Of a stretch of 64,000 bases of DNA, positions 30,085 to 58,881 are shown piece by piece. The notes beneath the pieces were generated by a model, which was not told where the DNA came from, did no database searches, and worked only from the letters and a program-made list of their open reading frames with translations. The stretch comes from Lingula anatina (taxonomy: Eukaryota; Animalia; Brachiopoda): assembly GCA_051362555.1 (NCBI GenBank), contig CM120644.1:11864567-11928566 (forward strand), read 5' to 3'. Numbering within the stretch: position 1 is the first letter of the stretch; each line of letters starts with the position of its first letter. The position numbers and the translations under genes were made by a program.

Positions 30085-32910
30085 TTGTTTTTTCTATTTC
30101 AGAAACATTCAACGATGAGGCTTTTTAGCACTACCAGCATATCCGGGCACCTGTCACGCTGTTCAAAACTCTTTTGGTTAGCGCAATACAAAAACAGAAA
30201 TACAATGAATGCAATTTACTTACTGGTTCAAGTGTGCCTAGTTTGGAGACCAGTTTCATCTTCACACTCGATGTTCCCGCCTGAACAGGACTGGTCCTCT
30301 GTTCCAGATCTCGACCCACGTCAGCCTGGATATGTGGATGATATCTACCCGAGCAGTATTGACCTATGCAACGGCTCTGTAGAAGCGGAGGCGGTCATAA
30401 GGAATGCACGGAAATGCTCGCGATTGGACTCCTGTTCTCAACGATGCGGGGAGGCAGCTCATGGTGGTGACGACTGTTCTTGTGACTCCAACTGCTTAGT
30501 TTACGGTGACTGTTGTTACGACTACGGCGACCAGTGCCAGTCTAATTCTAATGTGACCAGGATTATCCCAGCGATTGCGGCCGTTCCAGTCTGCGTTAGG
30601 ACATCGGAATATGAGTTCGGGTTAGTCTTGGGGAAAGGGTGCTCGGCACAGTGGAAGGGGACTGAGATGGAGAAAAAATGCTTTGCAAACAGCAGTGTCG
30701 TAACACACGTTATTCCCGTCACTGACCTCACAAACCAACTCCACTACGCAAACATGTTCTGCGCAAGGTGTAATGACGTCACAAATTATACTTTTTGGAG
30801 CGCCTCCTTTATTTGTCAGAACGACAGTGATTTTGTTGCCAACGTCACAGACCCTTTACTGGCGTTCGAACATAATTTGTGTGACTTAGTCCTACATGTA
30901 TCTGAAATGAGACGCTGTATTTCCAGCGAAGTAGTTGTTGACTGTCAACCAGAAAGCAGTTGTTCAACACAGATACGAGATGCATGCAAGACGTACAAAA
31001 ACATCGTTCAGTCCCATGATAAGGCATACCAGAACGAATACTGCGCTACATGCAATGATGAAAACTTAATAAGTATGCATTGTCCACGGGGCGGCGATTT
31101 TTTACCTGACATTACCTATGAAATTATTAGTCCCGGTAACTCTGAGGATTTGACAGGGAGTAACAGGCCGTCTTTTGGTTCTTTCTCGTTCTCGATTGTC
31201 ATGGACTTCAGTAAAGATTCGGAGGTGCAAGTTGGAGTCCGTGCCGAAGGGACAGATGAAGTCACAAAATGCACACTGGACGGGATGACTTCATCTTGCA
31301 TTCCATCCCAGTGCCGGAAGGACTATGTTCTTATTGACGGCACGTGCGTCCTAGGTGTCGTATTGTACGACGTGGATATTTACACCTACTGGAAAACAAA
31401 TGTTGGTTTTCAAGATTTTCCATCTAATACTGAACTGAATTATTTTGGACATACGCTTAGTTATTTCGTAGCCGGTCTTTATGGAGAAAAAGTGCGAGGT
31501 GCAGTCACTTTTGAAGTGGTTCGTAAAGGGTGGGGTTCGTTTCAGGTGCAAAACGGATTTAAACTGCAGTTTGACGAAACTGTCGATCTTAGAAAGACTG
31601 AGGAGGAATGGAGAAAAGAAACACGAAATGAATCATTCAGAAATATTCTTGCATACTACGTGGATTTTGTCAACTCCACAATTTCTCTATCGCTCTATTA
31701 CGATCCGTATTTGTTAGATGAAGCTTTGACTAGGGAAAAAGCCATCGACGAAGTGTTGATCATTGCTGAAACAGATTGTGAGCGCATACGTTTCGATAGT
31801 TACAACACGACAGAAAATGGAAGTATTGTCCTCTTACCCTCAATGACAATGATTAATGAATCCGATGCATACTACGAAACGGATGGATCGATTCTTGTCT
31901 GCCTAGATGTGCTTAATTTTACGGTGGTCGGTTCAAATTGGGAGGACGAAACTGTCGCAGACGATTCAAAGAAGGCGCTGGGAATCTTGACGATCGTCTG
32001 TACTGTTATTTCCCTTCTTTGCTTGCTCATACGCATAGCTTTGCAACCGTTTGCACGCCCGTTTCAAACTTTCCCAGGAAAACTTCAACTGTGCCTTTGT
32101 TGCTCTTTGGTCATGTGGAAAATGTTCTTCTTAGCTCGACCATTTGCCAGATCAAGTGGTAACGCCAGCGTGTGCATCGCGGTGGCTGTGTTATTCCACT
32201 GGAGCTTGCTGACCTCATTTTTCTGGATGAACGTCATCGCTGTTGACTTGTGGAAGACTTTCAGAAGCACCGCGGCTTTGAAAGTTTCGGCAGAGGCCAA
32301 CAAGACTATCCTCGGTTATGCCTGCTACGCGACTTTCCTCCCGGGCGGAATTGTTGCAGTTTGTCTTGTTCTGGATTACATTGACATAGATCCCCAGTTT
32401 AAGCCGAACTACCAAGGCCCCGCCTGCTACATAAGTAATATCTACCCACTCGTCTTGTTTTTAGTGGCCCCAATCGGCGTCGTACTTATTGTAAATATCA
32501 TCCTTTATGCGATGATTGCAAAGTCCATACACGCTGCTTTATCTACGTCTCTAAAACTCAATATGAGAAAGAACAAACACTCTTTTGTAACTTATCTGAG
32601 GCTCTTTGCGCTGATGGGGACGACCTGGATATTCGGATTTCTGTCTGGAGGACTTGGCATTCTTGCTTTGGAATATATCTTCGTGATTCTAACAACCCTG
32701 GATGGCTTGTTTATTTTCATAGCCGTCGTCTGCTCTAGGCGGGTTTGGGAGGAACTTCGACACTGGACGTGTGCCACGAGATTAAGCACGCCTAAAGTGA
32801 CGCAGAGCTCCAGCAGCGCGTATACCTGTTCCGCAACCCCAACATCTTCAAGTACGGCAGAGACCCTGCGATCTTCAACTAACTGTGGCACAGAAATAAG
32901 TCAAGTTTGA
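30085..32910 (+). CDS. Family-B (Methuselah/adhesion-like) GPCR with somatomedin-B domain, paralog 2; intronless CDS, likely start ~30205 (MNAIYLLVQVCLVWRPVSS)
   Basis: 941-codon ORF colinear with paralog 1 (SMB CSCDSNCLVYGDCCYDY, YANMFCARCN, 7TM nearly identical). Splice acceptor tttctatttcag at 30102 precedes the true ATG. Confidence 0.93.
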   Translation: MFFLFQKHSTMRLFSTTSISGHLSRCSKLFWLAQYKNRNTMNAIYLLVQVCLVWRPVSSSHSMFPPEQDWSSVPDLDPRQPGYVDDIYPSSIDLCNGSVEAEAVIRNARKCSRLDSCSQRCGEAAHGGDDCSCDSNCLVYGDCCYDYGDQCQSNSNVTRIIPAIAAVPVCVRTSEYEFGLVLGKGCSAQWKGTEMEKKCFANSSVVTHVIPVTDLTNQLHYANMFCARCNDVTNYTFWSASFICQNDSDFVANVTDPLLAFEHNLCDLVLHVSEMRRCISSEVVVDCQPESSCSTQIRDACKTYKNIVQSHDKAYQNEYCATCNDENLISMHCPRGGDFLPDITYEIISPGNSEDLTGSNRPSFGSFSFSIVMDFSKDSEVQVGVRAEGTDEVTKCTLDGMTSSCIPSQCRKDYVLIDGTCVLGVVLYDVDIYTYWKTNVGFQDFPSNTELNYFGHTLSYFVAGLYGEKVRGAVTFEVVRKGWGSFQVQNGFKLQFDETVDLRKTEEEWRKETRNESFRNILAYYVDFVNSTISLSLYYDPYLLDEALTREKAIDEVLIIAETDCERIRFDSYNTTENGSIVLLPSMTMINESDAYYETDGSILVCLDVLNFTVVGSNWEDETVADDSKKALGILTIVCTVISLLCLLIRIALQPFARPFQTFPGKLQLCLCCSLVMWKMFFLARPFARSSGNASVCIAVAVLFHWSLLTSFFWMNVIAVDLWKTFRSTAALKVSAEANKTILGYACYATFLPGGIVAVCLVLDYIDIDPQFKPNYQGPACYISNIYPLVLFLVAPIGVVLIVNIILYAMIAKSIHAALSTSLKLNMRKNKHSFVTYLRLFALMGTTWIFGFLSGGLGILALEYIFVILTTLDGLFIFIAVVCSRRVWEELRHWTCATRLSTPKVTQSSSSAYTCSATPTSSSTAETLRSSTNCGTEISQV

Positions 32911-34283: not shown

Positions 34284-34940
34284 TTAAGCATTTCCTTACC
34301 AAAGCAGATTTGCACACGGTTAATGGATGCTTGAGCGCTCGTTAATTCTCTTTGGTGAAAACATTATGTGGGCAGGTGATACAATATTTAACCAAGATGG
34401 CGGCGTTAAAAGTTTCATGAACTTAATTCGACATCCCAATATGTTCGCCCGCCGGTAACAGAACCTCGTATTTTAAGTGTATCTAAGGGAACCGAGTGAT
34501 TCCAAAGCATGCCAGCCACGAGGAAATGATCTGACGTATGAAGAGTTGCACAATAGCTATCAAATCAGTTTTTGAGTGTGGTTGGCACAGACACAGAGTG
34601 AAGAATCATTGATTTCGCACCCTGGAACTGCTTACTGTACTAGTCGAAGAAAATTAACCGTATTTGACATCACGCATTTAAATCAAGAGGCATGGAGGAT
34701 TCGCAAATGATATCAAGTGAGACCGTAGCTTTACTTGGATGATTCACACGTGTTTCACACATTTGCAAGATGGAGGATTTCAGTGGACGAGGCACCCTCT
34801 GCAGATACATTAAATAATACATAAGATAATTATGGACTCGAAACCTACATTTTACGTTCGCTGGGGAACGCAGTAAGTAAGCTCTAGAATGTGAGGTACA
34901 TGTAAACAGAGTCTATTCATGAAAACCATAGGCCTATAAT

Positions 34941-36989
34941 ATGCGTCTTTCACAAATGTTTATGTTTGCTTTGGGGTTTTATGTTGGTCTGATGGTCTTC
35001 ACGTTCTTCTCGGCTGTACCGCACAATCTAAATCCATCAAAGAGGAACCGGAATTATGAGGAATATGTGTTGAATCGAAACTCTGAAGACAGGCTTTTCA
35101 AACGGATGTCAGATGACAGCCACTACGTGGCGCCACTAGCCGATAGGGTGGATTTCAATGACGAGCAACACCATGACGGTAAGCCACGTGTTCGAAGGTT
35201 TTACGGCGTGTTTGTCACTGATATTATTGTGTTTAAAGTATAGTGTAGTAAGCATGGGGACAATGACAGCGATTTTGTGGGAGCACCCCTGGGTCGGATG
35301 ATATTTTTTGTAAATGCTTAGCTCACTACTGAAAATAAGCTTTCTACGAGCTTGAATACTAGTGAATGTCCGATGTTTAACAGTAAGTGGCGTACATGTA
35401 GGCCCATGTGTGTTTAGGGTTTGGCAAGTATGGCGTTTGTACCGGGGGCTCTTAAAAACGTGTCACCGATTAATTTTTTCCAAGTTTTTAGTACCTAATG
35501 TTCCTGTCAGGGTCGCAACACTTAATGAAAGGAACTACATGTGGGCGCTGTGTTGTAAGCACACACCCTCAACCATCGCTTGCGTATGCTCAACACCAGC
35601 ATCACGTCATGGAATTCATATCTCTTTCAGATGATGACACAGTAGCCAGAGAACTCTATCAAAAAGTTCGTGTATTATGCTGGGTGAAAACATCCACGGG
35701 GGAGATGGACACTAAAATCAGGGTGGCTAGGGATACGTGGGGGAAAAGATGTAACGTGTTCCTTATCCTTAATGTCGCTGACGTCAACGGAACGATGTCT
35801 GTGTCTGTCATTGACGTCAGTAAACCAGGCAGGAATCGTATTCCAGAGACAAAGGGGATACACGGTGATCGTGTCTTTAAGAGGAGGTTAGCAGGAACAC
35901 TAGACAATGATTCTTCTGTTCGTATGAATCAAATGGAATATAAATTAAAACTGCTTAACCCTGCTGTAGCTGTTAAAGGTGGAAACACTATAATGGACAG
36001 AAAACAAAATGGTTATTCAAATGTACAAAAGAAAAACCGAAACACTGGCCAAGTAGAGCGAAGGCATCGATATGATGGTCAGAAGGGCAAACCAGAAGGT
36101 GTAGCTGTCAGTGTGTCAGAAAAAGGAGGACAACTGGTCCCCAAACTATACCATGCGTATGCTTTCATCTATAAGAACTATTTCAAAGATGCCGACTGGT
36201 TTATCAACACTGATGACGACACTTACGTCATCGTAGAAAACCTACGTCACTTCCTGTCATCCAAAAACTCTAGTCACCCTGTGTATTTTGGGTACCATTC
36301 GAAAGCGTTTTTAGAACAGGGATATTTCAGCGGAGAAGGTGGTTATATTTTTAGCAAGGAAACGTTGCGCAGGCTGGTAATAATTGGCGGGAAACAACAA
36401 CAAAGTTGCCACCAGAATGGCGGAGAAATGGAGTTTGAAATGTGCCTCTCACAGTTAGGTGTCGACTCCGGCGACTCTAGGGATGAGTTAGGCAGAACCA
36501 GGTTCCACTACTTCCCGCCCCACATGCATTTTAGCGGGATTTATCCTGCGTGGTACAGAAAGCTCAGCCGGGAAAAACAGAGAAAAGTTGGTTGACATCT
36601 TATGTTCTCTGTCTCACTTTTCATGCTGATTTATTTACTTTATTTTATTACATTTTGTGTTTCATTTGCCCTTACTTTAGATCATCCACAAAATAAATAA
36701 AAAGATTTGTTAATCAATCAGTAAATCAATAAATTGATAAATAAATATCGATTCCCTCGTAAATTTAACCCAGGTGCGATACTGTAAGTTTCCTATCGAT
36801 CATTTTTTTAGGTATATCGTTCATCTATTTCATATCAATAATATTAATTTTCATTTACAGGGAATCGATTCAATTAGCGACCATGCTGTCAGTTTCAATA
36901 CCATGAGTCCAAACAACATGTGGGCAATGGAATACTACCTATATCACCTTAGGCCATATGGAATAGTGGCTTTATTCAAAAGAGAATAA
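34941..36989 (+). CDS. C1GALT1-like: Core 1 beta-1,3-galactosyltransferase (T-synthase, GT31)-like protein, divergent; ~440 aa, 3 exons
   Basis: Exons 34941-35178 (N-terminal TM anchor), 35631-36586 and 36861-36989; GT-AG, phases 1 and 0. Motifs KVRVLCWVKT, TWGKRCN, DADWFINTDDDTYVIVENLRHFL, PVYFG, GDSRDELGRTRFH and MEYYLYHLRPYG match the C1GALT1 family. Confidence 0.88.
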
Positions 36990-37726: not shown

Positions 37727-37799
37727 GCCTCTGTAGCTCAGTGGTTAGAGCACTGGTCTCGTAAACCAGGGGTCGTGAGTTCGAATCTCACCCGAGGCT
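37727..37799 (+). tRNA. tRNA-Thr (anticodon CGT)
   Basis: GCCTCTG TAGCTCAGTGGTTAGAGC A CTGGT-CTCGTAA-ACCAG GGGTC GTGAG-TTCGAAT-CTCAC CCGAGGC T. Full cloverleaf with A and B boxes and one U-C mismatch in the acceptor stem, followed by a T5 Pol III terminator. Confidence 0.93.
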
Positions 37800-40311
37800 T
37801 TTTGTTTTGCCTTTGTAACGTTGAATTGTAGCCTTTTCGAATGAAATTTATTAATTTGGGCATGTAAATCTCCAATTTTTTCAGTGTGTGGCAGCGTGCT
37901 ACAAATGAAAAAGCACTGCACTGTTGTATTGCTGTCAACAAACACAAACTTGTCGCAACTACTACATTTCACTCATGCGATTATTTTTCATCTATGTACA
38001 TAAAGAGTCCCGCGCCCTTTTGGCTGTCAAGTTACTACCATGGTGTGGTACGGTAGTTCACAAATGAAGAAAGAAAACAAATTGCTACTCCGAGAGGAGA
38101 TACAAATGTGCCCCAGATAGCCGCCAGGTATGGCGCATCTCGTTAGACCGAGTTACAGAAGGATGGATGACACTAGTGATGCCGCCTATAAATTACCACG
38201 AAGTGGAGGCCCGCATAAGACTTGTGTTAGGGACGACAGGTGTATTTTATGCTGTTAAACCGTGCAGCGAATTAACTTTGCATTGGTCGTGCAGCTTGCA
38301 GGATGAGGTAAACAAGATAACTGTTCAAAGAAGACCTCATGCTACATGAATAAATATCAGGGTTAAAATCCACGATCACATATTACGGAGGCGAGAGAAA
38401 TACAAAACTTTGCAGGAATGGAGATTATGGAGATTTGTTGTGGATATATTGTTTCACGGAAAAACATCGGCATAAGAAGAAGGAAGCACCACTCTTTGAG
38501 AACTCATTTAGTTTTGAAATGTAAAACAATACCAAACATTAGCCATAATTGTTAACTTAAAGAACGACTTTGTAAATTTGTTATTGTACCTTTTTTTTCG
38601 GCATTAAAAAAACAAGAATAGTTGCTCCATTTTTATCGTCAAATCTTTCACAATATGTTTTCTAGTGACCACAGTGCTCTGAGGGAACATACAATCTTTA
38701 ATTTCAAAAAGAAAAAAATAATTCAATTTCTATGGTCTTTGCTTTTTGCACTCAATACATTTTTGCATTTAACTTTGCTTTTTGCATTTGTATTTATTCC
38801 TTTAGAATTGACATCGTAGTTGCATTTAATCATATATGGTGTGTTAAAAAAACATTCATATTCAAGTACAGAAAATGGAACTAGGAAGAATTTAGAAATC
38901 TCTAATCACCCTTTTAATTGCTGTTCTCATTAAGGCCATTACAACGCGATTAATCATAAAAACACCCATGACAAAAAAGAACAACGACAAATATCAGTCG
39001 TTCATTCAAAATAAAAATTTCTTTATAATAGATAAAATTGTGCATATCAATAAATAATTACAAGACACCCATTTTACCATTGTGTTAGTAAATGATACAT
39101 GACCCCTACCCTAATTAAGTTACAGGTAATAGTTTAAAATATAAATGGCGTATTAAACTGTCTTGAACCGCAACACAAGGGGCTGATTCAGGCTGTATGT
39201 ATATATATTTTTAATCTTAGAGTCATGAACTTGTCCCATGAAGGGGGTCTGGGGACAATCCAATTTAAGATAGTTCAGCAGAAAACATGACTACGGCGAT
39301 GATTTGCCCTTTCTGATCAAAGGGAGACGCTTCCTGATCACATGACATTTGAGGTGGTTACGTTTGAGAGGCAGATTATACCTCCACGTGAATTTTTACA
39401 TTAAATGCAGAGAGGGACAATGAAAAGAATCTGCTGCGGTTTTTTTTTTCTTTTTTGATGTCATGAAAATGTTTCCTTGTTTTATTCGTGATGAATTGGA
39501 TAGCCTGAATCCGCCCCTTGCAACTAGTGCCCTCTAACCTGAGCTTTTCAACGTATAAACAACGCTCCAACATTGGACCCCTTACAAGAGGTTATTTTTA
39601 TAAATAAACAACATCATTAAAATACTCTTCTATCGGTTAAAATGAAAGGTATATCAAAATCCGTATAGATGAACTAAAGTTCGAGCATATCTAATTATTT
39701 TTCTCTCAGACTTTTATCACTAAAACTCTCATTACCCTCCCTAAGTGCGATCTAAGGCAGAGAGGATATCAAGTGTGACGCGTGAAAAATGGTTACAGTA
39801 AATTCCCAAAATAAAAACAACCGCCTTGAGTAAAATGGACCCTTTGCTTTTTGGTCTTCCCCGGAGCTCTTAATGACAAAAAGGACCTAGTAGAGAGCAT
39901 ATCGAGGGCATATTTGTCAATGTCGACCACGTCTCTGACATGAAAATTACGCGTTTGTCACATTTACCTTTTTGTTTATGTTGAATTTAGTAGAACGAGT
40001 TAACTAACTAGTGTACGACTTTTGTGTATATTAAACAATGATAAAATTTAGGAAAGTCTGACATGTTTCTTGATAATAAACGCACCACCACCATTGTTAG
40101 TGATCAAAAATTAAATTTGTCATACAAATAATCTATCAGTTCCAATGATAAAGTGCAAAGTTAGTCTAAATAGAATACAGTGGGCCCTCAGGCCACTTAA
40201 GTCTTGCTTGTTTCGTGATGGCAATTCTTTTGTAGCTTTAAGTTTCCAAAAGTGTTTTCATGAAATCTGCCACATGGCCCGTCGCTGTCCGTATTTTGCC
40301 ATAGATCCGTA

Positions 40312-43300
40312 TTATTTTCGTTTCCTCATGCACAGTTCCTGACACCTGCTCTGGAACGACGTTGGTAGTCGACGGCAGTTGCTCAGGCATGATAAAGGCT
40401 GTGGATTGTCCGTGAAAACGAACATGGGCAATGTCTGAAAGGGAAAAAAGTAACACTCGATCTAAATTTCCATTTATATGTGGTAATGATTTACTTCGTT
40501 GAAGTCAAAAAGATAAAATAGATTTTTATTGACCTGTTGTATACGTCAAACCAAAGTATCCATAAGTAAATTGTATCGAAAAGGGGTTGTTCAATTCTAT
40601 AAATTCGCAAGAATTTCGCAACAATTTGACTAATGACATCATAGGCCGCATTCACATCGAGTTGAGCCATGGCTCTACAAAGCCACGACCTAAATATGGC
40701 GGACGTACATGAAAGGAAAACCGCCTAACCTTTTAATAGTCTCTCCGCCTTTCACACGCCTCCCCATGTGTCGTCCCAATGGAGCCGAGATTTAATGACT
40801 GTACCCCCGCAGGGACGACGCACGGGGAGGCGTGTGAGAGGCGTAGAGACTATTAAAAGATAAGGCGGTTTTCCTTTCATGTACGTCCGCCATATTTAGA
40901 TCGTGGCTTTGTAGAGCCATGGCTCAACTCGATGTGAATGCGGCCACAGTCTCATTAATCATCTCTTTTGCAATTCGGACGAAACGTGGCAAGATTTACA
41001 AAAATAGTCTACCAGAATTGCTAGGCTACATGTTCTGTCATGTAATGATGATTTCAATAGTTTTATCTATACACGTTACAGTTTAGTCTTCAGACGGCAT
41101 AATGGTGTAACGGTACGTAGCTCTTACCGAAGCAGTTGTGGTGGTCGTGGCCGGGGTAGTAGTAGTGGTCGCGGTGGATGGCGTACTTGGCGCCGTGATG
41201 GGCGCCTGAGTGGGCCGGAACGCTAAAATTAAAATATATAAGGTACAGAAATAAATACTATTGCAATATGTTGAATTTTCTTTTTTTTTTTATTTATTCA
41301 TTTATTTATTTATTGGCATTAATTATAATTTAAATTATTTTTCTTGTATTGTCATTGGAAGAATTATACAAAAATTCATTTTAAGTTGAAATTCACTGTA
41401 GTGATATATGAATAAAAAGACCTGTAATACGAGGTTCACTGCTCTGAGCATTTACGATGAGAAAATAATAATAATAATAATAATAAAATTAATACTCACG
41501 GACATTTGGGTTACCACCTGTGCAAAGACAAAACAATCAATTGATTACCGTATAAGGTATACAGAATATCACTAAGACTATGATAAAAAAAATACCCTGA
41601 AGATTGTTCCATGCACATGTAGAACAGACACTGTGACACCGTTTTTAAGACGGCTAGGTCTGTTATTTTTTTTTCAACAAGTTAATGTTCAAAACAATGA
41701 CAAATGATTGTCCAAGCCACCGCCAGAAATTTGTACTGATGCACTCTTACTGAACTAGTAGTAACATAAAATAAAATGTTTAAAAGAGAAAACAAACACT
41801 AATAACAAACACTAAAAGCGTTCTGAGATTATATTGTGTAATACATCAATGCAGCAAAAGTTCTCGTAATACTTTTCTTGTAAAATATTGTTCTTTTCCG
41901 GCGATTAGTATTTTCTTCAAAATTGAATCAAAACTTCCAATTAGCAATATCAGACATATAGAAATATTTACAAATGTCGTATATTTTGCAGGTAACCTGA
42001 ATAGGTTCAAGGTCACCTCCATGGGACTTTTCCGCTAAAATAGATTTTCATGGGGAAAAGGGCCATTTTTCTCTACTCACAAACTATTACTTGACCCGTC
42101 CCTGTATTTGGATTCGATGTTTTAATCCACTTTTAATTTGACTGACCAGCCATTATAACGACATCTGCCATCACGCGCAATGCCTCGTTTTCACACAAGA
42201 AAATGTTTTGTATCGTGCCCCATTGTCTTGTATAATACAGACATTGCAAGCTGGCAATGGCTACAGCATGGGGGAACATAAGGTACTAACGACACAAGCT
42301 ACGCTTCAGATAAACATTATCTACACGGTTTTTTGTCTTTAGAGTCTGAATTTGGCAATATAAGAAGCTTTACAAGACATGCATATGACTGTGTGGGATT
42401 TACCATACGTGCAGAGAACCTCTAAATATTAACTTTGTCGGAAAAATCCCATGGAGTGTCCCTTTAATCATTGGATTTATAACTGGATGTTACTTGTTGT
42501 TCACATGAAGCGTTACGTTCAATTTTTCCTTCAGTTTATTCGTATTCAACACAGAAACTGTGGTATTTTGTGCTGATATCTCAGAAAGTGTGCAAGTACT
42601 TACCGAAAAACGGAGGGACTGAAAATAAAAATTATACAAATAGTTTTAGTGAGTACTTTTTTGTTTCGAATAAAATTAACAAATAACATTCATATTTTGC
42701 AGTAAACTAGAGTCACAAATCGTTGGACGAATAAAGTAACACCTTTTGATGATACTGATTGATACCTGCAATACACATTTCACAATTTTCTATTATGGCA
42801 ATATACAAACTTTAGTATTTCTCTTGATTTAAATGGTATGAAAATGTATTTGGCCTGCGCACCAAGGTTAAAACTGTCTATACACACTTACATACCTAAT
42901 ACCTAAATGCTGTGAATAATAATACATCAAAGGATATGTTGATGTGGGTTAAGGGAAGGAACGATGAAACGAAAGGTCATGAAAAAATAAAAGATGATAA
43001 CACAAGCATGACTATGATATGCACACACATTACTATGTTTTTACATACATACACACATACATACATACATACATACATACTTGGTCAAAAAGATCCGACC
43101 TTTAGTCCTAAGTACTCTTGGTTACAAATGACCATGTGGCAGCTATTGACCGTTTTAAATAAGGTTTTTGAATTCCACAGGTTGAGAAAAGCTAAAATAC
43201 CGGTGAAATTATCCATATTTTGCATCATTTATTCCAATTAAGAACTTGCACCTCCTCAAATATGGTTTTCCACAATGATTTACATTGAAGTAAAAATGGC

Positions 43301-46300
43301 CAAAAAATTCAGAAGACGCCACCGAATGTCATCAATCTTATCCACCATTAGCAGTTTGTGCTCTTTAGACTGAATGAACAATTAAAAAAAAACATGGGTA
43401 TGAAATACACCTCAAACGTGGATGGACCCAGACCCTTACAAACAATCTTCCAAGAGAAATCTCACAACATGCCTTGGGGCTCTCTCTGAGACCTGTGGTC
43501 GTGACCTATTTACCCGACATCTCACTCCATTTGCAAGATGTGACTTCATAAACGATTACAGACCACCCCATGATAACGCGTTTGCTCCCTTTTCTCGTCT
43601 GGTGATTGATTTTTTGCAGAAACGCAATATTCTGAGGAGGGAACAACCATATTTGAGCTTGAATGCAAACCCCATTGCCCAGCAAACACAGAACATTATT
43701 ATAAGGTTACTATAACGTTTTACGCTTTGAGGATTCATGTTGGTTCACCATATAGATCTTGATAAAAATAGAAGTGTATATATTGATGCACCTTGAAAGA
43801 TCTACATTATAGTTGTTAAATACAATCCGAGCTTTCGGCCCCTGGGCCTTCTTCGGGGATTACCCAGGGGCCGAAAGCTCGGATTGTATATAACAACTAT
43901 AGTGTAGATCTTTCAAGGTGCATCAATATATACACTTCTATAACCTTTTACATGACCGAAAAATGTAACGCCAACATTATGGTAACGTTATAAAACCCTA
44001 TGTGTTTGCTGGGTCAGTACCTGAGCGATGATTTGGATTGTGCGATGCAAAGAACCATTCCCCTTATTATCTGAAACAACTTCTCTTCAGGAGAAATGGG
44101 GCAATATCCCACAAAACAGACCCGTAGCCATTGCTGGAGGCATGTGGCGCCGTCTACAGGGGATACACATGTAAGTGCAGTACTCCGTAAAACAGGCTAA
44201 TAGACACGTGGATTATATAGAATACCTTCTGATGATTGTTGTGTAAAGATTTGATGACATTCCGTGGCGTCTTTTTACACTTGAGGGGATGCAAGTTCTG
44301 GATATGTATAGAATATAGTTATTTGCACCGGTATTTTAGCTTTTGTTAACCGTTAAGTCATGTTAAATTTGGTACTTGGAATAGTAAAACGCTATTCGAA
44401 ACGGTTAAGAGCTGTCATGCAATCATTTGTAAACAAAAGTACATAGGACTAACGGTGGGACAACCTGGAACAAGAGTGTATATACATACACACACACATA
44501 GCCTACATACATACATACATAAATACATACATACAAACATACATACATACATACATACATAGCCTACATACATACATACATAAATACATACATACAAACA
44601 TACATACATACATACATACATAGCCTACATACATAGCCTACATACATACATAGCCTACATACCAAAATTGCAAAAATAAACTTACCTCCAGGTGGAACAG
44701 GAAAAGGTACTGGTGGCAGGACTTTTAAGAAAAAAGAACATTTTAGATAACTTAATTCAATTCAAGTGTATTCTCAGTTAAACGGAGAGCCCGAATGTGG
44801 CAACTAAACAACTGCTTGAAATACAGTAATAACGCAGATTCTACAAATGACCGTTAAAAAGATACTTCAAAATACTTTTAGGAGTAAGAATATTAATATT
44901 ACAAATACTCGAAAATTGTGTACCAAAAACGTTTTTACAAGTTTTTTTGCATTTGCCTTGCACTCACCAGGGAAGCCAGGGATGCCAGGGAAGCCGGGGA
45001 GACCAGGGATGACGGGAAGCGCTGGATTTATCATAAATAATACAACATCACTAATATGTTTCAAAATGCACTTTTTCTTTTTTTTATCTTTTTTTTTTTC
45101 AATTTCATGTTACACCCACTTCAAATTCGTTAAGTACTAGATGAGGTATATTACAGTGTACATCTACGATCATTTTACAATAATACTTACTCGATGCTAT
45201 CGGTTCTTTTATTTCAACTTACCTGGTTGCGTCATATTGAGGTTAACTAAAAGGTAACGAAAGGCAGAAAGCATTAAAATTATGCGTTATACAAACGTCT
45301 CGTGAAATTGGAGCATTTACCCCTCTTTATTGAGTAAGTTAATTTTTAAAGAAAATACAATATTGAAATCATTATTTTTTGTTTAATGTTTTACCAGATT
45401 TTAATGAAATTGTGATACTTACTTATTGCCTGCGACAATGCAGTTACTGTAAATAGAAAATAAAAATTGAAATAAGAATAACAATGGTTGCACGTGGAAT
45501 TATAATGTGCGTTGTCCAATAACGTTGCAAAAAACGTTGACCAAACGTTGCATATTAATTTGCTAAAATCTGACGTAGATCACAAAGCGCCAACACTGAT
45601 TTCACGATCAGCTTATATTAAAAAGATTTTGTTGATTTAATGTTGAAGAGGGACTAAGTTGAAGTACCGACATATAATCAAAAGCTGGAGTTAAATTCCA
45701 TAACCTTGCATCAAACCAGCAGAATGGCAAAATTTTGCTTTACGTGCTCCAAAAAGATGTTTCCTCTGTCGTAAATGAGCATAAATTCAGACATGGGAAA
45801 AAACATACCCTCTTCCAAGACCTCAGATTAATGATGTCCACTTTTCTCTTTAAGAATGGAGAAATGTCCACAAGTTAACTAGAGACATATGTGTGAATAT
45901 CTAGCGCAAAATCTATCTGTGGCCCTGGTAGAGATAAGGAAAAACTTTTGGAGATAATGAAGGTCTGGAGGGTTCCCTTAGTCTATGTTTACATGTGATT
46001 CATTTTTATGTATTGTATTTCACCTAAACCTTGCTGGTCCAAAAGACCAGCGATATCTATTTTTTTCTGGTCCTCTGGCATTTCAAACAGCCATGAAATG
46101 TCGGACAGGCAGTTTCCCCATGTCTGATAAATTGGGCACTGATTCAACATTTAATCTACAATTTTATGCCAGCTGGTATGACACTGATGTCCACAACAAA
46201 AAAAAAATAAAACTCTCAGTTTTTTAACCTTCCTTCTATATATTGGATGATAAAACAGATACTCAACAATATAACTGGACTAGGAAAGTGCAAATTAAAG

Positions 46301-49300
46301 AAACTTTCTATTCAAAAAGTTAGTATTTCGATGAGTACTTGAGCAGTGCGCCCGTGAGACTGAATACAACATAATAAGTTGATTGAATCATTACTTACGT
46401 GGAGCAATTACGTTACCGCCAGTGACTGGAAAAGAAAGTTTTATGGTTACAAATTGAACACGTATTTTTTTCGGCAGATCGTAGGCCCTACCTATATTTC
46501 ATCTGTCTCAATGCAAATGAAAGCGGTTGAATTGTGCGATAAAACGATAATTTTCAAAAACAATCAAAACGACCAGAAGGACGTAAAACGGGAATAATGG
46601 AGACAGAAATATCAGCGAAAATTTTGATTAAAAATACATTTTATCACATAAAAGACATGAACAGAATAAATTACACTATCTAACATTAATAAACATAATC
46701 TTGGTTTGTACGTTGTTTCTACTTACGCAACGCTTGCACCAAGTTGACTGAAATAAAGGGGAAAAACTCACTTGAAATCAGATCAGGCAACCACAAAAAT
46801 GACTGAAACCGACCTAGCTGTAATAATCCTTTAAATGACTTACATGTACATTACGAATGTTGAATAGCAAGGGAGGGCACCACTTTCCCTGATGCGAGCA
46901 TACCCACATCAATATTTCATATGTTATAAATGTTTGTCACAAGAATCAAGGGGTTGAAACAAACTTTCAGCTGAGATATGCTTGTACTTTAATAATTCCC
47001 AATAATTGAATACAAACAAAATACTAAAGACTACAGAAACGGAATCTGACAAAATTTCTTGCCATTCTAAAAACGTATTAACTGATGAATTTACTAATAA
47101 TATTTTTAAAAACGTGGACAACTTACTGAGAGGCGCTATTATGGGATTGTTGGCTGAAAATAAATTAATAAAAAGTAATTATATTTGACATAAAAACCAA
47201 AGAAATATAAGACTAAAAAATGTTCATAATCCAAAATTGTAAAATGGAGTCTTGGTTCTCATTTGAACATTCTGTTGTACATATACTGTACTGATTCAAT
47301 TTTTTGGCCTTTAAATCAACTCTCGATTTTCTCAATGCATTTTGTGAAAGAGGTGTGATCGGAAAGGTCGTCACAGGAATAGGAGCCCGGTGAAAAGAGA
47401 CCGAGTACCGAGTTCGAGCTTCATTAGATTCACACAGGTCACGGTTAGAGTAACGAGGGTGGGTCGAAATCTAGGACGAGGCTCACCTGTACAATATCAA
47501 CGGGAAACCTACCCCATATCAAGCTATATCACAGGGTAATCTCTCGTACATATATCACGGAGGGTCCACATGATTAAGGTTTAGCAGAAGAGTCGGGGTC
47601 AGTTTTTGTGAACAAAACCACCTGACAACGGTTCCTCAGTGTACGCCGATAACAGACATTCGAATGCAAGAACAAATACTAAATAACCAGTTTAAAGTAT
47701 CAAGGCATAAAAACGCAATATTGTTTTCCGGAAAATAGAAGCAAAAGATAGATAAAAACCCCTGTGCAAAGGGGAGACAATTCAGTGTATTCTTCTGTGT
47801 TTGTGTGTGTGTGTGTGAGAGAGAGAGAGAGTAGTGATACATACGCATAGCAATAGCAGCCTGCAACAATTGGCTGAGGATGGCTGAAATGTAATATAAG
47901 TAAAAAATAGAAATAAGTGCCTAATCTTTATAACAAGGCGATGATCGTAATGGCAGGCTACAATAATATGATGTCAAATTCGAATTATGAAGTAGGTCGA
48001 ATAACCTTAGCATGGCCCATAGAATATTACAACGGTAACATAAAAATATAGCATTGGTCTTAATGAACTCGTACAAATCAAAGGGCGATATGTGATAATG
48101 ATATATGATGGTAAATGTTATATTTCTTCTGAAAGATTTATTGCAAGGCCTAATTATAGACATACACACATACATTAACGCGTAGTCTTATCTGTCAAAT
48201 TAAAAGGAAAAACCGGTATTTCAAAATACAATACAAGTTAATGAAATATCTCACGATAAATGTTATATTTTAATCCGATATTAATAGGATTTACTAATGC
48301 AGCTTAATAACAGTAGCATAGTTTGTCTTACCTTGCAAAGCGGCTGTCAGAACAGTTCCGCCAGTTCCAGTTCCTGGAACTTAAACGAAAAAAAAAACAT
48401 TCGATCAACTATTTTCTTAGGCTAAGAAAATTAAATAATATAAACTAGTAATAGTTATCTTTTACGTCCATCGCCTATTTATATCATTCTCATTTACACA
48501 TAGAGGCTTCAATTTTTCTTCAAAGTATAAGACTGACACATAAGTGAGCTGGAAGCCATTTCACAACCTCACTACGGAATTCATTACTTGTAATAAAATT
48601 GCTTATGCGATGATTGGGCGAGAAGAATAGAATTCCCAGCACCTAAGACCCCATTCAGATAGACATATCGTATTAGTTGGGTCCCTCCAACTCTGAGGGG
48701 GATTTTTGCTAGGTGCAATCAGTGGAATCAGCTTAATTGTCTAACGTGCTTCCTCTTGCAGCCAGGGGGTATTTATGCCGAGCGCACACGGAAGTTAACT
48801 ACGTAATTAAAAAACTAAAACAAGCCAATTAAATAAACTAGGTCATGTACAACCTACCTAAATGTTCCCTAAGGAGCCTAACACTTATCCCCTACATTAT
48901 GCTACCTACAGACATAACTAGAATTATGTTATTTGAATAAATTATGTATTAAAAGATAGGTGGATTTAGATCATGAAAAAGGTTCTATAGGCTTTTCCGG
49001 ATATGAATCACATCCATGAAACCACGTGCTATCAAGCACGTGTTTATTTCCGCATAAATAGTCAACCCTCTTAACGCTATCCTTACGTACCTGGACATGT
49101 GGTCAGCTTGACATGGTTGACATTAGCGTTCGCAACGAGCATGCCACACGCAGTTGCTGCCGTATGGAAGTAACAGGTAGTCGTTCTGAAAGGATATAAG
49201 ATTAAATATAATATCTATGAGAAATGAATGAAGAAGCGACGAGACAGACCCGTGCTCGAAAATAATGCCTAAGGGGTATTTTAACCCTTTATCATCACCC

Positions 49301-52300
49301 AGATGCCGAAAATAGGTTTTTCCTGCATCTGATTATTGAATAATGCATCCATCTTTGTGCTGATTTAAAACAATAAAAAACCCTCTAAAATATAAAATAT
49401 CGTCGTTTAAATTTCTCATTGCAGTGTATAAGCGTGGGGAATTGAAAGCTTTAATCGTCAATTTAACATCTTTCTATTTTGAGGTGAGATAGCAATCGGT
49501 ATGGGGCGTAATTGCATCCCTAAACAAGATTTTATCACGAAATGTAGCAGAGTTGTATGGGCTACTATCCCGTGCCATCAGTTTGGCTTAAATTTTTTTA
49601 TTATGGAGTTATGAGCCCCTAATTACAGATTTTCGCTAAACAAAGGCATTATTCTGCTTTATCAACGATAAAATCTGAACTAAGACTTTTAAGAAAAATC
49701 GCTGACAGGGTTTTGGGGTAGTAAAAGGTGTCATTAAACAGGCGTTGAAACGAAGATGAAATATGTGTAAATGTTAATTAATTTAGTCACTGAACACTGG
49801 AGATTTATCTATTACCCAAAAGAATGTATGTAAGGCAGTAAATAAGGGTGACAATATGATTAATACGTCTTGTTTTCCGGTATGCATTGGAGGAATGAAT
49901 AAACAAGCCAAAGGTGAAATAAGGGTAAAGAATCGGAACCCGCCTCCCCTTCCCCACTCCACCCCAATTCTACAAGAAAATGGTGGATTAAGAATAGATG
50001 TGTTTCCACAAAACAGACAACGGCCTAACACTGATTCAAACAACGGCATTTTCCACGGCCGCCTAGGTATTGAATGCTTTATTTGTTCTAATAATCTAAT
50101 TTGACAAATGGTATAATTGGTTTGCCGATTGAAAGTAGAAAAATCAGGCCCGTAGCCAACAATTGCAATTTCAAAAGGGGGGTTCTTTTTCCGAAAAAGT
50201 GGACCTTTTACAATGAATCCTTAGTGCACACAGATCAAAATTTACCCAGATTAGATCTTTTCCTGACGAAAAGGGCGGTTCTTTCGAACCCCCCCCCTCC
50301 CTCCGGCTACGGGCCTGAAAATATACCTTGAGGCTGGGTACGTGGTGAAAGAATAGCACATCTGTATTTATATACTTGATCTTGCAATTTGACAATTCAA
50401 GGAATTTGTTGACCCATCGTGGTGCAAATTGAACACAACATTAAGTGAGTATCAGAATGTTGCTGAAAAAACTGTTCTCTTTGTCAAACAGATACTCGCA
50501 TTATGATATGAACCCACGCCGTTGTGCTACACGGGCACATCAACCATAAAAAATTATGTCTGCAGTCTTTATACATGCAGATCAACAAATCACGGCAACA
50601 TCGCAGTGTTAATGGAATCGATTGTTCCAAACCACACTATAATCATCAATAAGACAATACTTCACTAAGTTATAACTTTACTTACGCAGTGTCGAAGTCA
50701 ATGGCAAAACAGTTACCATTCCCGCCACAGTTCATGGTGCACATCGCCTGAGTCGTCACTCCCGGTTGTTCAGTTCCTCCCAATATTTGCATACCGTTGT
50801 TTGTAGAGACCACCGCAGTACCTGTTTGTGATTTTTAAAAAGCGATTAAAGACGGTTTATTTAGTAATTTTACTGTTTTATTTACTGATAGAAACACATA
50901 TTTCTTCGAATCGATTTACTTTCCTATATACAGTGCCGCCGGAATGTCCCCTTACTTACCCTCCGGGTCGCTGCGGGTTGTACGGACGGCCTGGCTCGGT
51001 AACTATGGAAATAACATTGTCATCCATACGCTGTTTGGTTTCTGTTAACAATAGTTCCATACCCTGCCCGTCGTGCAATTATCGTGACAAACTTTCTGCT
51101 AACAAAAGAGCCTAACCCTAGCTCGCTGAGATAAAGATCGAAGGTGAGCGTGGTCGCAATTAAGTGTTCGTCCAAGCGTTAATTGACCTTTAATGCGCGG
51201 TGGCTTCACTCTACTTTGATCACTCTACTCTGATACGGAGATTTTAAGTATAAGAACTTGCCAACAGTGATTTTGCTTTACCAAAAAGATTCGGTGGTGA
51301 CAGCAATTTTCGTGTACATTGTAGCTATGAATTGATTGAATTTACATAGAGTTTAATAAATGAATTTATGAATTTATTAAAGTTCAAATAAAACACTACT
51401 CGTACTTGAACATGTAATACACTGATTTATTAGGCTTCAAACTGTCTTTGCTATATATATATTATTAACAAGATTGAAATTTATTTTTATAGTATGTCCT
51501 TATATTTCTATTAGCTTTGTTCATAGACGAAATGCATTTTTTCCAAAAAGACTTGTCAGTTGTTTCAGTGATAAATATTTTGTTAGCCATATCTTTAATA
51601 TAGTTCTGTCTATATTTGCATATAGGATCTCTCCCATCTACACCCGTAACATTTCTGTCCTTTCGTATTCGTTCATCAATCGTAAACAACCTTCCCATCA
51701 ACTGAACGCAAAAGTTGCCTGGGGAACTGGCCCGTTGTCGAATTTCGAATATTTCTTTATTTGACAAGGCGACGGGTGGCCGGCCGAAAGACTGATTCCT
51801 TGATTCTGTAGGACAAAAAGCATCGAAAGAAATTAATTTATAAAGCTGGATTACAATCTCTCGGGCTAACTTCACTGGTTGGCACGTGTCATTTCACATT
51901 AATTAACAATCAGTTCAGGTTAGCTTTATTCATGCTGGGTAAACACAGTGATTAAGCCCTGACTATTACATAATCACTACTGTGTGACACGCGTCGTCTA
52001 AAATTAATGTTAACATTGCGATGACGCTCTTCAATCCAAACTAATCAATTGCACATAATTCTAAATCAACTGACACGTGTCAACAGGATTGTTTGTGTAT
52101 CTGGTCTTCCTAAATGGCCAATAAATGTTTTGTATAATATGACATGTTTATGTCACTGATTTCTGTGCCATCGTGTCACCTGCCACCTGCCAAGTGAACG
52201 GTATAAATCGACACTCAGATTTTCCAGAATTCCAAGATGCCTCTTAGCGATTACGTGCGTCTGCGTTTCATCGCCCTCCGAGAACAAGGGGTGCGAATTA

Positions 52301-53255
52301 AAAACATAACCGCACAAATGGAAAATGAAGACCATAAAGTGTCGCGACAAGCCATTTACTATGTGTTAAAGAAATACGACGAAGAGAAGGTCGTGCATCA
52401 GGCTACTAAACTAGCAACACATGTAATAAAGGTAATGAGACATTGATATTTATTTGATGTATTAGCTATTTATAATTTTCCATTTTAACTACGCTTTTGT
52501 TGATCGTGACTTACTATCATCAAATAAAATTGTTATACGTGTTTTAAAACTAAGCCTGATTTGTTCTTCAGAGTTTTGTTCTAATATTCGACTTGCCTTT
52601 ACTCGAGTCTTCTGTTGCAGTTGATACATAACCCGGTATTGTTTGCTCGTGTCGATAGCAGTCTCTTTGCATCAGCTATAATAGAAACCTTACGTGAGGC
52701 AATTAAGAAGGGGCAGACCGTGTTCGTTGAACCGACTAATTTGGGTGTCCGATAAGGATTGCTTGGGGATTCCCTACCCTGTAATTATCATATGGCCTCT
52801 ATTGTTCGACCATATGGGGCAGGGTTGGGAAACCATACGGCCATTTGGTAAGGGGACATTCCGGCGGCATGTTCATTTGTCTTTTTTTATGTATTCACTT
52901 CATGCCATCCTTCAAGTACTTAAATTTTTTCATGAATAACTTTTTATTTTACTGTTCATGATGCATAACTTTTCTTTTTTGACTATTATACTTAATCCTT
53001 TCAATTTTGGTATCAATGATTTTTTGTTTTACAACACTTTCATTTTTTTTATTCGACCCTACTTCCCATATTTTTACATTTAAAAGGTTTTATTTCTTCG
53101 TTGACTTCGCACATCTCTGTTCAATTAAAATATCTCTCTCTTTCTCATCATTCCATGAAAAATGCGCTGTACCTACCTTGTGACGTCACATCCCTCACAG
53201 CGAGCAACAACCCGACGCTAAGTAAAGCCCAAAGTGAATTACGATAAGCAGCCAT
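40312..53255 (-). CDS. Secreted protein: signal peptide + PAN/apple-like domain + micro-exon-encoded Pro/Gly/hydrophobic linker + Thr-rich tract + C-terminal twin CX3C; ~264 aa, 14 exons
   Basis: Minus-strand exons: 53255-53177 (MAAYRNSLWALLSVGLLLAVRDVTSQ), 50821-50686 + 49185-49091 (CTMNCGGNGNCFAIDFDTATTTCYFH..CP), 48379-48332, 46747-46727, 46425-46399, 45446-45423, 45246-45223, 45021-44968, 44721-44686, 42618-42604, 41517-41500, 41222-41128 (PSTATTTTTPATTTTTAS), 40434-40312 (CLSNCRRLPTSFQSRCQELCMRKRK*). All introns are GT-AG and the 795-nt total is open throughout. Confidence 0.82.
40644..40945. mobile_element. Foldback PIF/Harbinger-like MITE (~130-bp arms)
   Basis: GGCCGCATTCACATCGAGTTGAGCCATGG...CCATGGCTCAACTCGATGTGAATGCGGCC; same family as 57390-57935; lies in the last intron of the minus-strand gene. 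Confidence 0.85.
42010..42463. mobile_element. Kolobok-like MITE
   Basis: TTCA|AGGTCACCTCCATGGGACTTTTCCG ... CGGAAAAATCCCATGGAGTGTCCCT|TTAA imperfect TIRs. Confidence 0.6.
43769..43940. mobile_element. Near-perfect 172-bp hairpin, probable Penelope-like pLTR inversion
   Basis: 78-bp arms with 2 mismatches and a 16-nt loop; contains a minimal hammerhead motif on the minus strand. Confidence 0.65.
43824..43861 (-). ncRNA. Minimal type-I hammerhead ribozyme motif (Penelope-type) with core variant CCGAAGA
   Basis: Minus strand AATCC-CCGAAGA-A-GGCC(CAGG)GGCC-GAA-AGCT-C-GGATT: stem I AATCC/GGATT, stem II GGCC/GGCC, palindromic AGCT at stem III. Confidence 0.6.
44482..44662. repeat. Compound (CATA)n microsatellite with a 56-bp higher-order repeat
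   Basis: CATA arrays interrupted by TAGCC and TAAA; the block at ~44500-44560 is repeated at ~44560-44620. Confidence 0.9.
50145..50317. mobile_element. MITE, CAGGCCCGTAGCC family, 5-bp TSD
   Basis: CAGGCCCGTAGCC...GGCTACGGGCCTG perfect 13-bp TIR; TSD AAAAT/AAAAT. Confidence 0.8.
51465..51805 (-). CDS. BEN-domain exon (probably transposon-derived) inside intron 1 of the PAN micro-exon gene
   Basis: SSPGNFCVQLMGRLFTIDER..NVTGVDGRDPICKYRQNYIK..FWKKCISSMNKANR fits the BEN pattern. Acceptor gctttttgtcctacag before 51805, stop at 51465, AATAAA at 51431-51426. Confidence 0.65.
52237..52446 (+). mobile_element. Helix-turn-helix N-terminus of a Tc1/IS630-like transposase (fragment)
   Basis: MPLSDYVRLRFIALREQGVRIKNITAQMENEDHKVSRQAIYYVLKKY resembles the paired-like HTH; TATAAA at 52202. 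No catalytic domain follows. Confidence 0.55.
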
Positions 53256-56336: not shown

Positions 56337-56690
56337 TAACCTAATTAGCCAATTAGGACGCAATCAGAACAAGTTCATCATTGGACTAACCTAATTAGCC
56401 AATTAGGACGCATTCAGAACAAGTTCATCATTGGACTAACCTAATTAGCCAATTAGGACGCATTCAGAACAAGTTCATCATTGGACTAACCTAATTAGCC
56501 AATTAGGACGCATTCAGAACAAGTTCATCATTGGACTAACCTAATTAGCCAATTAGGGCGCATTCAGAACAAGTTCATCATTGGACTAACCTAATTAGCC
56601 AATTAGGGCGCATTCAGAACAAGTTCATCATTGGACTAACCTAATTAGCCAATTAGGGCGCATTCAGAACAAGTTCATCCGTGGACTAAC
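56337..56690. repeat. 50-bp minisatellite, 7 copies
   Basis: TAACCTAATTAGCCAATTAGG(A/G)CGCATTCAGAACAAGTTCATCATTGGAC at 56337, 56387 ... 56637. Confidence 0.97.
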
Positions 56691-57389: not shown

Positions 57390-57935
57390 GAGCGCATTCT
57401 CAACGAATTAAGCCAGGCTTTACAAAGCCGGTGACCTAAAAATGGCGGACGTACATGAAAGAAAAACCGCCTAATCTTTTAATAGTCTCTCCGCCTCTCA
57501 CACGCCTCCCCACACGTCGTCCCTGCGGGGTACAGTAATTAAATCTCGGCTCCGAACATTAATATTTCCGTGAATATCTCTGGTGATATTATCTCCGTAG
57601 ATAGTCGATTCATTGCTGCTCTACGGGCCAAATTATTCCTTTTTCGTCTCTGTTTTCAAAGATAATAGAACAGAAGAGCTTTTTTCCTTCGATCGCCTTC
57701 AGCCGCCATGCTTTCTTCACCACGAGTTTAACTGATGAGCATGCGCACTTAATATTTCTCAGGTAGCTTCCGCATGGCGAACGGAGCCGAGATTTAATTA
57801 CTGTACCCCGCAGGGACGACAAGTGGGGAGGCGGAGAGACTATTAAAAGATTAGGCGGTTTTTCTTTCATGTACCTCCGCCATTTTTAGGTCACCGGCTT
57901 TGTAAAGCCTGGCTTAATTCGTTGAGAATGCGCAC
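57390..57935. mobile_element. PIF/Harbinger-like non-autonomous element (~165-bp TIRs)
   Basis: GAGCGCATTCTCAACGAATTAAGCC...GGCTTAATTCGTTGAGAATGCGCAC; TAA/TTA flanks; arms homologous to 40644-40945. Confidence 0.85.

Positions 57936-58839: not shown

Positions 58840-58881
<42 letters not shown>

What the first reader, a model, noticed from the sequence alone, without database searches (positions are those of the whole stretch)
41500..48379. Nine consecutive symmetric phase-1 micro-exons in a secreted PAN protein (MEG-like architecture outside flatworms)
Seen: between the PAN domain and the Thr-rich exon there are nine exons of 48, 21, 27, 24, 24, 54, 36, 15 and 18 nt. All are multiples of 3 and phase 1/1, with strong GT(A/G)AG donors, spread over ~7 kb. 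They encode VPGTGTGGTVLTAALQ, VNLVQAL, LTGGNVIAP, LTALSQAI, INLNMTQP, ALPVIPGLPGFPGIPGFP, VLPPVPFPVPPG, VPPFF and GGNPNV. Known: schistosome micro-exon genes (MEGs) combine a signal peptide with runs of symmetric micro-exons and diversify secreted proteins by exon skipping. Inference: any subset could be skipped in frame (up to 2^9 combinations), giving a variable-length linker. The ORF track does not show this gene, and gene finders would likely miss it.
Basis: partly seen in the sequence, partly recalled or inferred. Interest (0 to 1): 0.85.

Follow-up and report, generated by a model that had tools for sequence, protein, structure and literature searches.

The report
Lingula eleven-micro-exon secreted protein gene
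A gene of the lamp shell Lingula, for a likely secreted protein, has a run of eleven tiny in-frame exons; RNA reads show nine of them joined in order with no skipping seen, so it likely makes one fixed water-repelling linker rather than the variable protein pool known from parasitic flatworms.

Summary
All are multiples of three and phase 1/1. The 16-exon model matches Lingula anatina RefSeq XP_013417860.1 at 285 of 286 residues, so gene finders did not miss it; its name (BCL-6 corepressor-like) is wrong. RNA reads from 7 of 9 runs place nine micro-exons in order: about 40 joint observations fit inclusion, no skipping joint was listed, 5 reads are ambiguous. Depth is low, so rare skipping stays open. 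A diverged lineage keeps exon sizes in the helical part, with conservative changes, and shows two lengths of the Gly-x-Pro tract. The protein is an orphan: signal peptide, weak PAN-like domain, three predicted amphipathic helices, Pro/Gly tract, Thr tract, two-CxxxC tail. It meets a published operational definition of micro-exon genes but not the schistosome hallmarks (39% of coding sequence; no skipping seen). Tropoelastin and SmVAL6 are closer in design. This scan noted similar runs in other animals' genomes (unchecked). Function is inferred only.

The parts
53177..53255 (-). Exon 1 (coding part): ATG and signal-peptide-like 26 residues; ends in phase 1
   Evidence: joint to exon 2 in 3 reads of X7; matches XP_013417860.1
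50686..50821 (-). Exon 2, first part of PAN-like domain (136 nt, phase 1/2)
   Evidence: 100% match to XP_013417860.1; Pfam PAN_1 E 0.0022, below cut-off
49091..49185 (-). Exon 3, second part of PAN-like domain (95 nt, phase 2/1)
   Evidence: RefSeq protein; no joint listed in reads
48332..48379 (-). Micro-exon 1 (48 nt); one residue differs from RefSeq (T in the window, P at 112)
   Evidence: RefSeq only, no joint listed in reads
47845..47883 (-).
   Evidence: RefSeq only, no joint listed in reads
47127..47153 (-).
   Evidence: reads in X7, X8, X9
46727..46747 (-). Micro-exon 4 (21 nt)
   Evidence: its 21 letters (4 changed) lie between the neighbours in 5 X9 reads (table 5c)
46399..46425 (-). 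Micro-exon 5 (27 nt)
45423..45446 (-). Micro-exon 6 (24 nt)
   Evidence: joints on both sides (7 and 13 reads)
45223..45246 (-). Micro-exon 7 (24 nt), carries the only N-x-T sequon
   Evidence: its letters lie between the neighbours in 11 X9 reads; sequon at 169
44968..45021 (-). Micro-exon 8 (54 nt), 9-nt Gly-x-Pro repeats
   Evidence: tract length varies in the diverged lineage
44686..44721 (-). Micro-exon 9 (36 nt), Pro-rich
   Evidence: joint to micro-exon 8 in 9 reads
42604..42618 (-). Micro-exon 10 (15 nt)
   Evidence: its letters lie between the neighbours in X1 (2 reads) and X7 (3 reads)
41500..41517 (-). Micro-exon 11 (18 nt)
   Evidence: same 5 reads
41128..41222 (-). Thr-rich exon (95 nt, phase 1/0)
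   Evidence: RefSeq; almost no reads laid in 4 runs
40312..40434 (-). Last coding exon: C-x3-C-x10-C-x3-C and basic tail, stop
   Evidence: predicted helical hairpin 259-285 with pLDDT about 85
39700..40311 (-). Likely 3' untranslated region (end not fixed)
   Evidence: depth about 13 in oligo-dT run X7 over 39700-40160 with many differences; none in X1, X2, X4

Best explanation
This is an expressed 16-exon Lingula gene whose eleven symmetric phase-1 micro-exons are likely spliced in constitutively, giving one main 286-residue, likely secreted protein that probably serves as a self-associating, sugar-coated component of an extracellular matrix, coat or mucus. Shown: exon structure, match to the RefSeq protein, in-order joining of nine micro-exons in reads, a charge-free 112-residue micro-exon product. 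Predicted: signal peptide, PAN-like head, three related amphipathic helices each split over two or three micro-exons, a disordered Pro/Gly tract, an O-glycosylated Thr tract, a disulfide-held helical hairpin tail. Inferred mechanism: the PAN-like head binds a protein or glycan partner, the uncharged helices and Pro/Gly tract pack with other copies, and the basic Cys tail anchors or cross-links. The symmetry is inferred to be the trace of how the linker grew (exon duplication inside a phase-1 intron keeps the frame); variation arises mainly between alleles and lineages, not by skipping.
For: Model equals XP_013417860.1 at 285 of 286 residues with all 11 exons; the cluster has 1 member and no shorter isoform turned up among 7990 and 486 candidates of 157-501 aa. 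Reads: micro-exons 3-4-5 in 6 reads, 5-6 in 7, 6-7-8 in 13, 8-9 in 9, 9-10-11 in 5; 0 skipping joints among the 8 + 8 joint rows listed. In the diverged runs X7-X9, micro-exons 4, 7 and 10 keep their sizes, the 7 amino-acid changes in micro-exons 3-7 are all like-for-like (I-L, N-T, L-F, V-I, I-V, N-T, M-L; read by hand), the sequon stays, dN/dS about 0.58. Helices 111-131, 138-149, 155-171 cross exon borders, so single skips would cut helices. 0 charged residues in 112, Pro+Gly 55% in micro-exons 8-11. No strong transmembrane stretch (best 19-residue hydropathy 1.66).
Against: Depth is low (6-30% of each run read; mates not independent; joints under 3 reads per run are not listed): 0 of 13 still allows 21% skipping, 0 of 5 allows 45%. 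Micro-exons 1 and 2 and the Thr exon have no listed joint. Two tract lengths 9 nt apart occur within single runs. Tissues and stages of the runs are unknown. No functional evidence at all: no homolog, no fold match, structure model pLDDT 47.6, not found in two shell-proteome supplements. dN/dS is not significantly below 1 (p 0.47).
Confidence: 0.55

Rival explanations
1. A MEG-like diversity generator: the micro-exons are skipped in combinations, in some tissue or stage, giving a pool of secreted variants.
For: All 11 symmetric, no join makes a stop; meets the operational MEG definition; 5 ambiguous X7 reads would be a skip of micro-exons 4+5; two tract lengths within a run could be an optional 9-nt exon; tropoelastin and SmVAL6 do skip such exons.
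Against: No skipping joint listed; a true 3-to-6 skip in X7 should have given a two-letter row in table 5c as the 5-to-6 joint did in X9, and none is listed, which points to more than 40 letters between (inference); one RefSeq record; 39% micro-exon share; no paralogs found.
Confidence: 0.15
2. Constitutive exons, but the protein is a secreted recognition or defence protein (lectin-like PAN head on a stalk, cationic CxxxC hairpin tail) rather than a structural one.
For: PAN-like head; basic tail with two CxxxC in a predicted hairpin (likeness to plant alpha-hairpinins is recalled, not tested); low expression in whole runs; fairly fast protein change between lineages; a fibrinogen-domain gene lies next door.
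Against: dN/dS under 1; no paralog family found; linker is hydrophobic and Pro/Gly-rich like structural proteins; neighbourhood in animals is weak evidence.
Confidence: 0.2
3. The hydrophobic helices insert into or lie on a membrane, tethering the PAN-like head to a cell surface (for example gamete or epithelial surface).
For: 70 uncharged residues with three helices; many weak VIA-align rows are membrane helix bundles (Z 4.5-6.8).
Against: Helices are short and amphipathic with Gln/Asn/Ser faces; Z values are in the range the tool calls common for helical bundles; a sequon and Thr tract follow, which fit a fully exported chain.
Confidence: 0.1

Closest known systems
[quoted passage not shown] 2010 not held; described from PMC4350168 (passages), PMC4015677 (passages), bioRxiv 2023.06.21.545858 (first third), bioRxiv 2020.04.08.031872 (passages and section 9)
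   Same: Signal peptide, run of more than ten symmetric micro-exons of 15-54 nt, introns 0.2-2 kb, orphan secreted product, fast sequence change.
   Different: Micro-exons make 39% of the coding sequence (22% if 36 nt or less) against 'most', up to 75%; no skipping seen; has folded-domain exons at both ends; free-living host; no family or sequence kinship found; dN/dS about 0.6.
Schistosoma mansoni SmVAL6 (PMC4015677, PMC4350168; passages)
   Same: Ordinary exons for a conserved extracellular-type domain followed by a run of small symmetric exons.
   Different: SmVAL6 has at least 5 skipped isoforms and a VAL domain; here a PAN-like domain and no isoform seen.
Vertebrate tropoelastin (bioRxiv 2024.12.03.626628; passages)
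   Same: Secreted low-complexity protein with phase 1:1 exon borders and hydrophobic Pro/Gly/Val exons.
   Different: No lysine cross-linking exons (0 charged residues in the micro-exon block); only the middle block is phase 1:1; much shorter; tropoelastin is widely skipped; no sequence kinship.
RefSeq XP_013417860.1 / UniRef100_A0A1S3K5F4, 'BCL-6 corepressor-like protein 1' of Lingula anatina
   Same: The same gene: 285 of 286 residues.
   Different: The name is unsupported (only PAN_1 hits in Pfam at E up to 10; signal-peptide-like start); 0 papers hold either accession.

Membership tests
Micro-exon gene, operational definition (bioRxiv 2020.04.08.031872) | At least 7 exons, at least half under 70 nt and divisible by 3, run of at least 4 | tested here: met
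   16 coding exons, 11 micro-exons, one run of 11
Schistosome-type MEG | Run of symmetric micro-exons | tested here: met
   11 of 11 multiples of 3, phase 1/1
Schistosome-type MEG | Signal peptide | tested here: met
   by inspection of exon 1 (basic start, 13 hydrophobic residues, small-residue end); no signal-peptide predictor was run
Schistosome-type MEG | Most of the coding region (up to 75%) in micro-exons | tested here: not met
   333 of 858 nt = 39%; 192 nt = 22% for exons of 36 nt or less
Schistosome-type MEG | Frequent isoforms by exon skipping | tested here: not met
   0 skipping joints listed against about 40 inclusion observations in 7 of 9 runs; one protein record
Schistosome-type MEG | Rare or tissue-restricted skipping | tested here: inconclusive
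   low depth, 3-read listing threshold, 5 ambiguous reads, micro-exons 1-2 without listed joints
Schistosome-type MEG | Mature region dN/dS near or above 1 | tested here: inconclusive
   0.58 from 7 and 4 changes over 41 codons, p 0.47
Schistosome-type MEG | Multi-gene family / kinship to flatworm MEGs | tested here: inconclusive
   only self found in 3 word-based searches; no genome held; HMMER search never ran
PAN/apple domain (PF00024) | Pfam score above cut-off | tested here: not met
   18.3 bits against 21.4, E 0.0022, residues 43-83
PAN/apple domain (PF00024) | C-x3-C-x5-C ... C core and PAN fold | tested here: inconclusive
   Cys 54, 58, 64, 76, 85, 102 (pattern recalled); Atlas best 0.80, 10 of 10 named hits in the PAN clan, a lead only; own model too poor there
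Tropoelastin | Lysine cross-linking domains alternating with hydrophobic domains | tested here: not met
   no Lys or other charge in residues 104-215
BCOR/BCORL1 | Nuclear protein with ankyrin and PUFD domains (recalled) | tested here: not met
   Pfam gives PAN_1 only; 286 aa with signal-peptide-like start
Lingula shell matrix proteins | Listed in a shell proteome | tested here: inconclusive
   no hit for accession, name or peptide in the supplement of PMC13425148; the one PAN_1 row seen in PMC4595640 is a 446-aa protein (2 of 3 places shown); the protein has only two tryptic peptides of 7-8 residues, so it is easy to miss

The most novel reading that the evidence does not exclude
A free-living brachiopod has independently evolved a MEG-like gene in which a PAN-like binding head sits on a linker whose helices and Gly-x-Pro repeats are tuned by regulated micro-exon skipping (micro-exons 4+5, an optional 9-nt exon) in a tissue or stage not well sampled here, on top of high allelic variation; this would separate the MEG design from parasitism and immune evasion.
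Probability: 0.15. Interest if true: 0.7.

Novelty: new member of a known kind. Interest (0 to 1): 0.4.

Why it matters
It is a verified run of eleven symmetric micro-exons in a free-living lophotrochozoan, where one paper read here says MEGs appear restricted to flatworms (PMC4350168). It shows that the architecture alone does not imply isoform diversification, a caution for operational MEG counts. It gives a compact test case for how constitutive 15-27-nt exons are spliced, and corrects a misnamed orphan secreted protein that may be part of the Lingula extracellular toolkit. If skipping were found, interest would rise markedly.

Tried and rejected
No genome is held, so paralogs and other micro-exon genes could not be counted. 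No indexed RNA holder was listed; 9 same-label raw-read runs were offered, 7 laid, X5 and X6 not. X4 gave almost no depth on the micro-exons, X2 and X3 too few reads for a listed joint. Loose-end tables were filled by repeats in both lays. Three homolog searches found only the RefSeq protein. The HMMER search of representatives never ran. PDB sequence search: one Thr-rich chance hit, E 1.3. Foldseek: 0 matches at E 0.001; VIA-align best Z 6.8 at rmsd 12, generic helix bundles. Atlas on residues 100-286: no usable hit. The dN/dS of 0.46 was dropped because the Gly-x-Pro tract is not colinear between lineages; one search uses micro-exons 3-7 only. My first reading of the 21/30-letter inserts as misalignment was rejected by depth arithmetic. 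Five further strict candidates (48191, 45847, 44654, 43543, 41798) were rejected: three have stops, none is in RefSeq, and reads join across the other two. A candidate at 51003-50961 (43 nt) was rejected by eye: not a multiple of 3, absent from RefSeq, and reads join exon 1 to exon 2 directly. Literature searches: accessions 0 papers; Lingula with micro-exon terms, no Lingula paper among 20 of 190 listed; casein/SCPP comparison gave only listings and is not used. bioRxiv supplements are closed and were not seen; they are unlikely to bear on this gene.
Full report
Observation. It also holds two more of the same type, 47883-47845 (39 nt) and 47153-47127 (27 nt). The run is 48, 39, 27, 21, 27, 24, 24, 54, 36, 15, 18 nt, all phase 1/1, with introns of 176-2067 nt. 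A strict splice-site scan found 18 short candidates in this span, 12 symmetric and open, against 0 on the opposite strand and a mean of 1.1 (max 5) in 300 simulations. The scan rules were set after seeing the exons, so this is a favourable test; the RefSeq and RNA evidence below does not depend on it.

The gene. Exon 2 alone, searched against longer proteins, gave one hit at 100%: XP_013417860.1 of Lingula anatina, 286 aa, named BCL-6 corepressor-like protein 1. A 16-exon model from the window (ATG 53255, stop 40312) matches it at 285 of 286 residues and needs all eleven micro-exons. So the gene is already annotated, and the name is unsupported: Pfam gives only PAN_1, E 0.0022, below cut-off. 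That RefSeq has 15- and 18-nt exons right suggests it was built on transcripts (inference). The cluster has one member, and two searches over 157-501 aa (7990 and 486 candidates) returned only this record: no skipped isoform and no relative is on record there.

RNA. Seven of nine offered runs were laid, 6-30% of each. Joints listed: exon 1 to 2 (3 reads, X7); micro-exon 3 to 5 with the 21 letters of micro-exon 4 between (X8 1, X9 5); 5 to 6 (X8 1, X9 6); 6 to 8 with micro-exon 7 between (X7 2, X8 1, X9 10, plus 2 more in table 5c); 8 to 9 (X7 4, X8 3, X9 2); 9 to 11 with micro-exon 10 between (X1 2, X7 3). That is about 40 observations of in-order inclusion over nine micro-exons; mates are counted apart and one read can show two joints. 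The other joint rows (5 of 8, 3 of 8) lie in repeats or poly-A/T. No skipping joint and no direct 49091-to-41222 joint was listed. Limits: joints under 3 reads per run are hidden; 0 of 13 still allows 21% skipping and 0 of 5 allows 45%; micro-exons 1 and 2 and the Thr exon have no listed joint. A true skip would leave two letters between and should appear in table 5c as the 5-to-6 joint does for X9; it does not, so more than 40 letters (micro-exons 4+5 in a further allele) is the likelier reading. This is inference about the tool's output, about 85%.

Variation. Runs X7-X9 come from a lineage that differs clearly from the window, while the two X1 reads match it at micro-exon 10. Micro-exons 4, 7 and 10 keep their sizes. 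In micro-exons 3-7 I read 7 amino-acid changes and 4 silent ones by hand; all seven are like-for-like, the N-x-T sequon is kept, and dN/dS is 0.58, not significantly below 1. Only reads at least 88% alike were laid, so divergence is a lower bound, and a paralog cannot be fully excluded. The Gly-x-Pro tract is 9 or 18 nt longer than in the window, both lengths within X7 (2 and 2 reads, depth arithmetic). Repeat-number alleles are the simpler reading since the tract is a 9-nt repeat; an optional 9-nt exon in that lineage is not excluded.

Protein. Residues 1-26 look like a signal peptide (by inspection). 27-103 has six cysteines and is PAN-like (Pfam weak; Atlas 0.80 with 10 of 10 named hits in the clan, a lead only). 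The micro-exons give residues 104-215 with no charged residue; the single-sequence model (mean pLDDT 47.6) puts helices at 111-131, 138-149, 155-171, with high hydrophobic moment and related wording (IAPL..L.QA twice). Each helix spans two or three exons. Micro-exons 8-11 are 55% Pro+Gly. A Thr tract follows, then C-x3-C-x10-C-x3-C with a basic end, predicted as a helical hairpin at pLDDT about 85. No fold or PDB match was found.

How it likely works. Shown: one in-order spliced transcript. Inferred: an exported glycoprotein in which a PAN-like head binds a partner, an uncharged helical and Pro/Gly linker packs with other copies, and the Cys tail anchors or cross-links, as a matrix, coat or mucus component (0.55). 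The symmetry is best read as the trace of frame-safe exon duplication; at nucleotide level no clear duplicate pair remains, so this step is inferred from the protein repeat. Rivals: recognition or defence protein (0.2), regulated skipping as in MEGs (0.15), membrane-tethered (0.1).

Comparison. By the rule used for tapeworm MEGs (at least 7 exons, half micro, run of 4) this is a micro-exon gene. By the schistosome picture (most of the coding region, up to 75%, and skipped isoforms) it is not: 39% and no skipping seen. SmVAL6 (domain plus small-exon run) and tropoelastin (phase 1:1 borders, hydrophobic Pro/Gly exons) are close in design but do skip. It is not filed as a MEG-family member. Earlier notes of this scan report symmetric micro-exon runs in Trichoplax, cephalopods and sharks (81 findings in at least 32 genomes; unchecked), which suggests the design is not rare outside flatworms. 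It was not found in two Lingula shell-proteome supplements, weak evidence given its few tryptic peptides.

Verdict. Real, larger than reported, already annotated under a wrong name, apparently constitutive. New member of a known kind; interest 0.4.

Noticed in passing
window 1-5760: Tandem array of a 362-nt unit, 15.8 copies, 92% matches, with strong strand skew; satellite-like.
   Followed up: no
window 22506-25283 (+) and 30049-32910 (+): Two long single-ORF paralogs with Somatomedin B and 7tm_2 domains: a tandem pair of adhesion/secretin-type receptors, apparently almost intronless.
   Followed up: partly
window 34932-36595 (+): Fringe-like glycosyltransferase ORF (resembles core-1 galactosyltransferases, recalled) with an unusual inserted-looking middle stretch.
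   Followed up: partly
window 58452-61100 (+): Fibrinogen C-terminal domain gene with a signal-like start and a Cys-containing first exon, divergent from the micro-exon gene.
   Followed up: partly
window 37727-37799 (+): tRNA-Thr(CGT).
   Followed up: no
window 52147-53068: Inside intron 1, reads of X1 and X2 reach depth 80-150 on one strand only, with many differences and loose ends: probably a repeat expressed from other loci.
   Followed up: no
window 40630-40950, 57400-57920: Related inverted-repeat elements (MITE-like, by eye) in the last intron and upstream; the first is covered by reads in all four runs.
   Followed up: no
window 56337-56690: Tandem array of a 50-nt unit, 7.1 copies, 98% matches.
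   Followed up: no
window 8400-17000 (+): Another multi-exon gene with a signal-like start near 8550 and a 51-nt Pro/Thr repeat at 16581-16711; no Pfam hit for the one ORF tested.
   Followed up: partly
window 41128-41222: The Thr-rich exon had almost no laid reads in four runs although the exon before it did; divergence, repeat masking or another 3' end could explain it.
   Followed up: no
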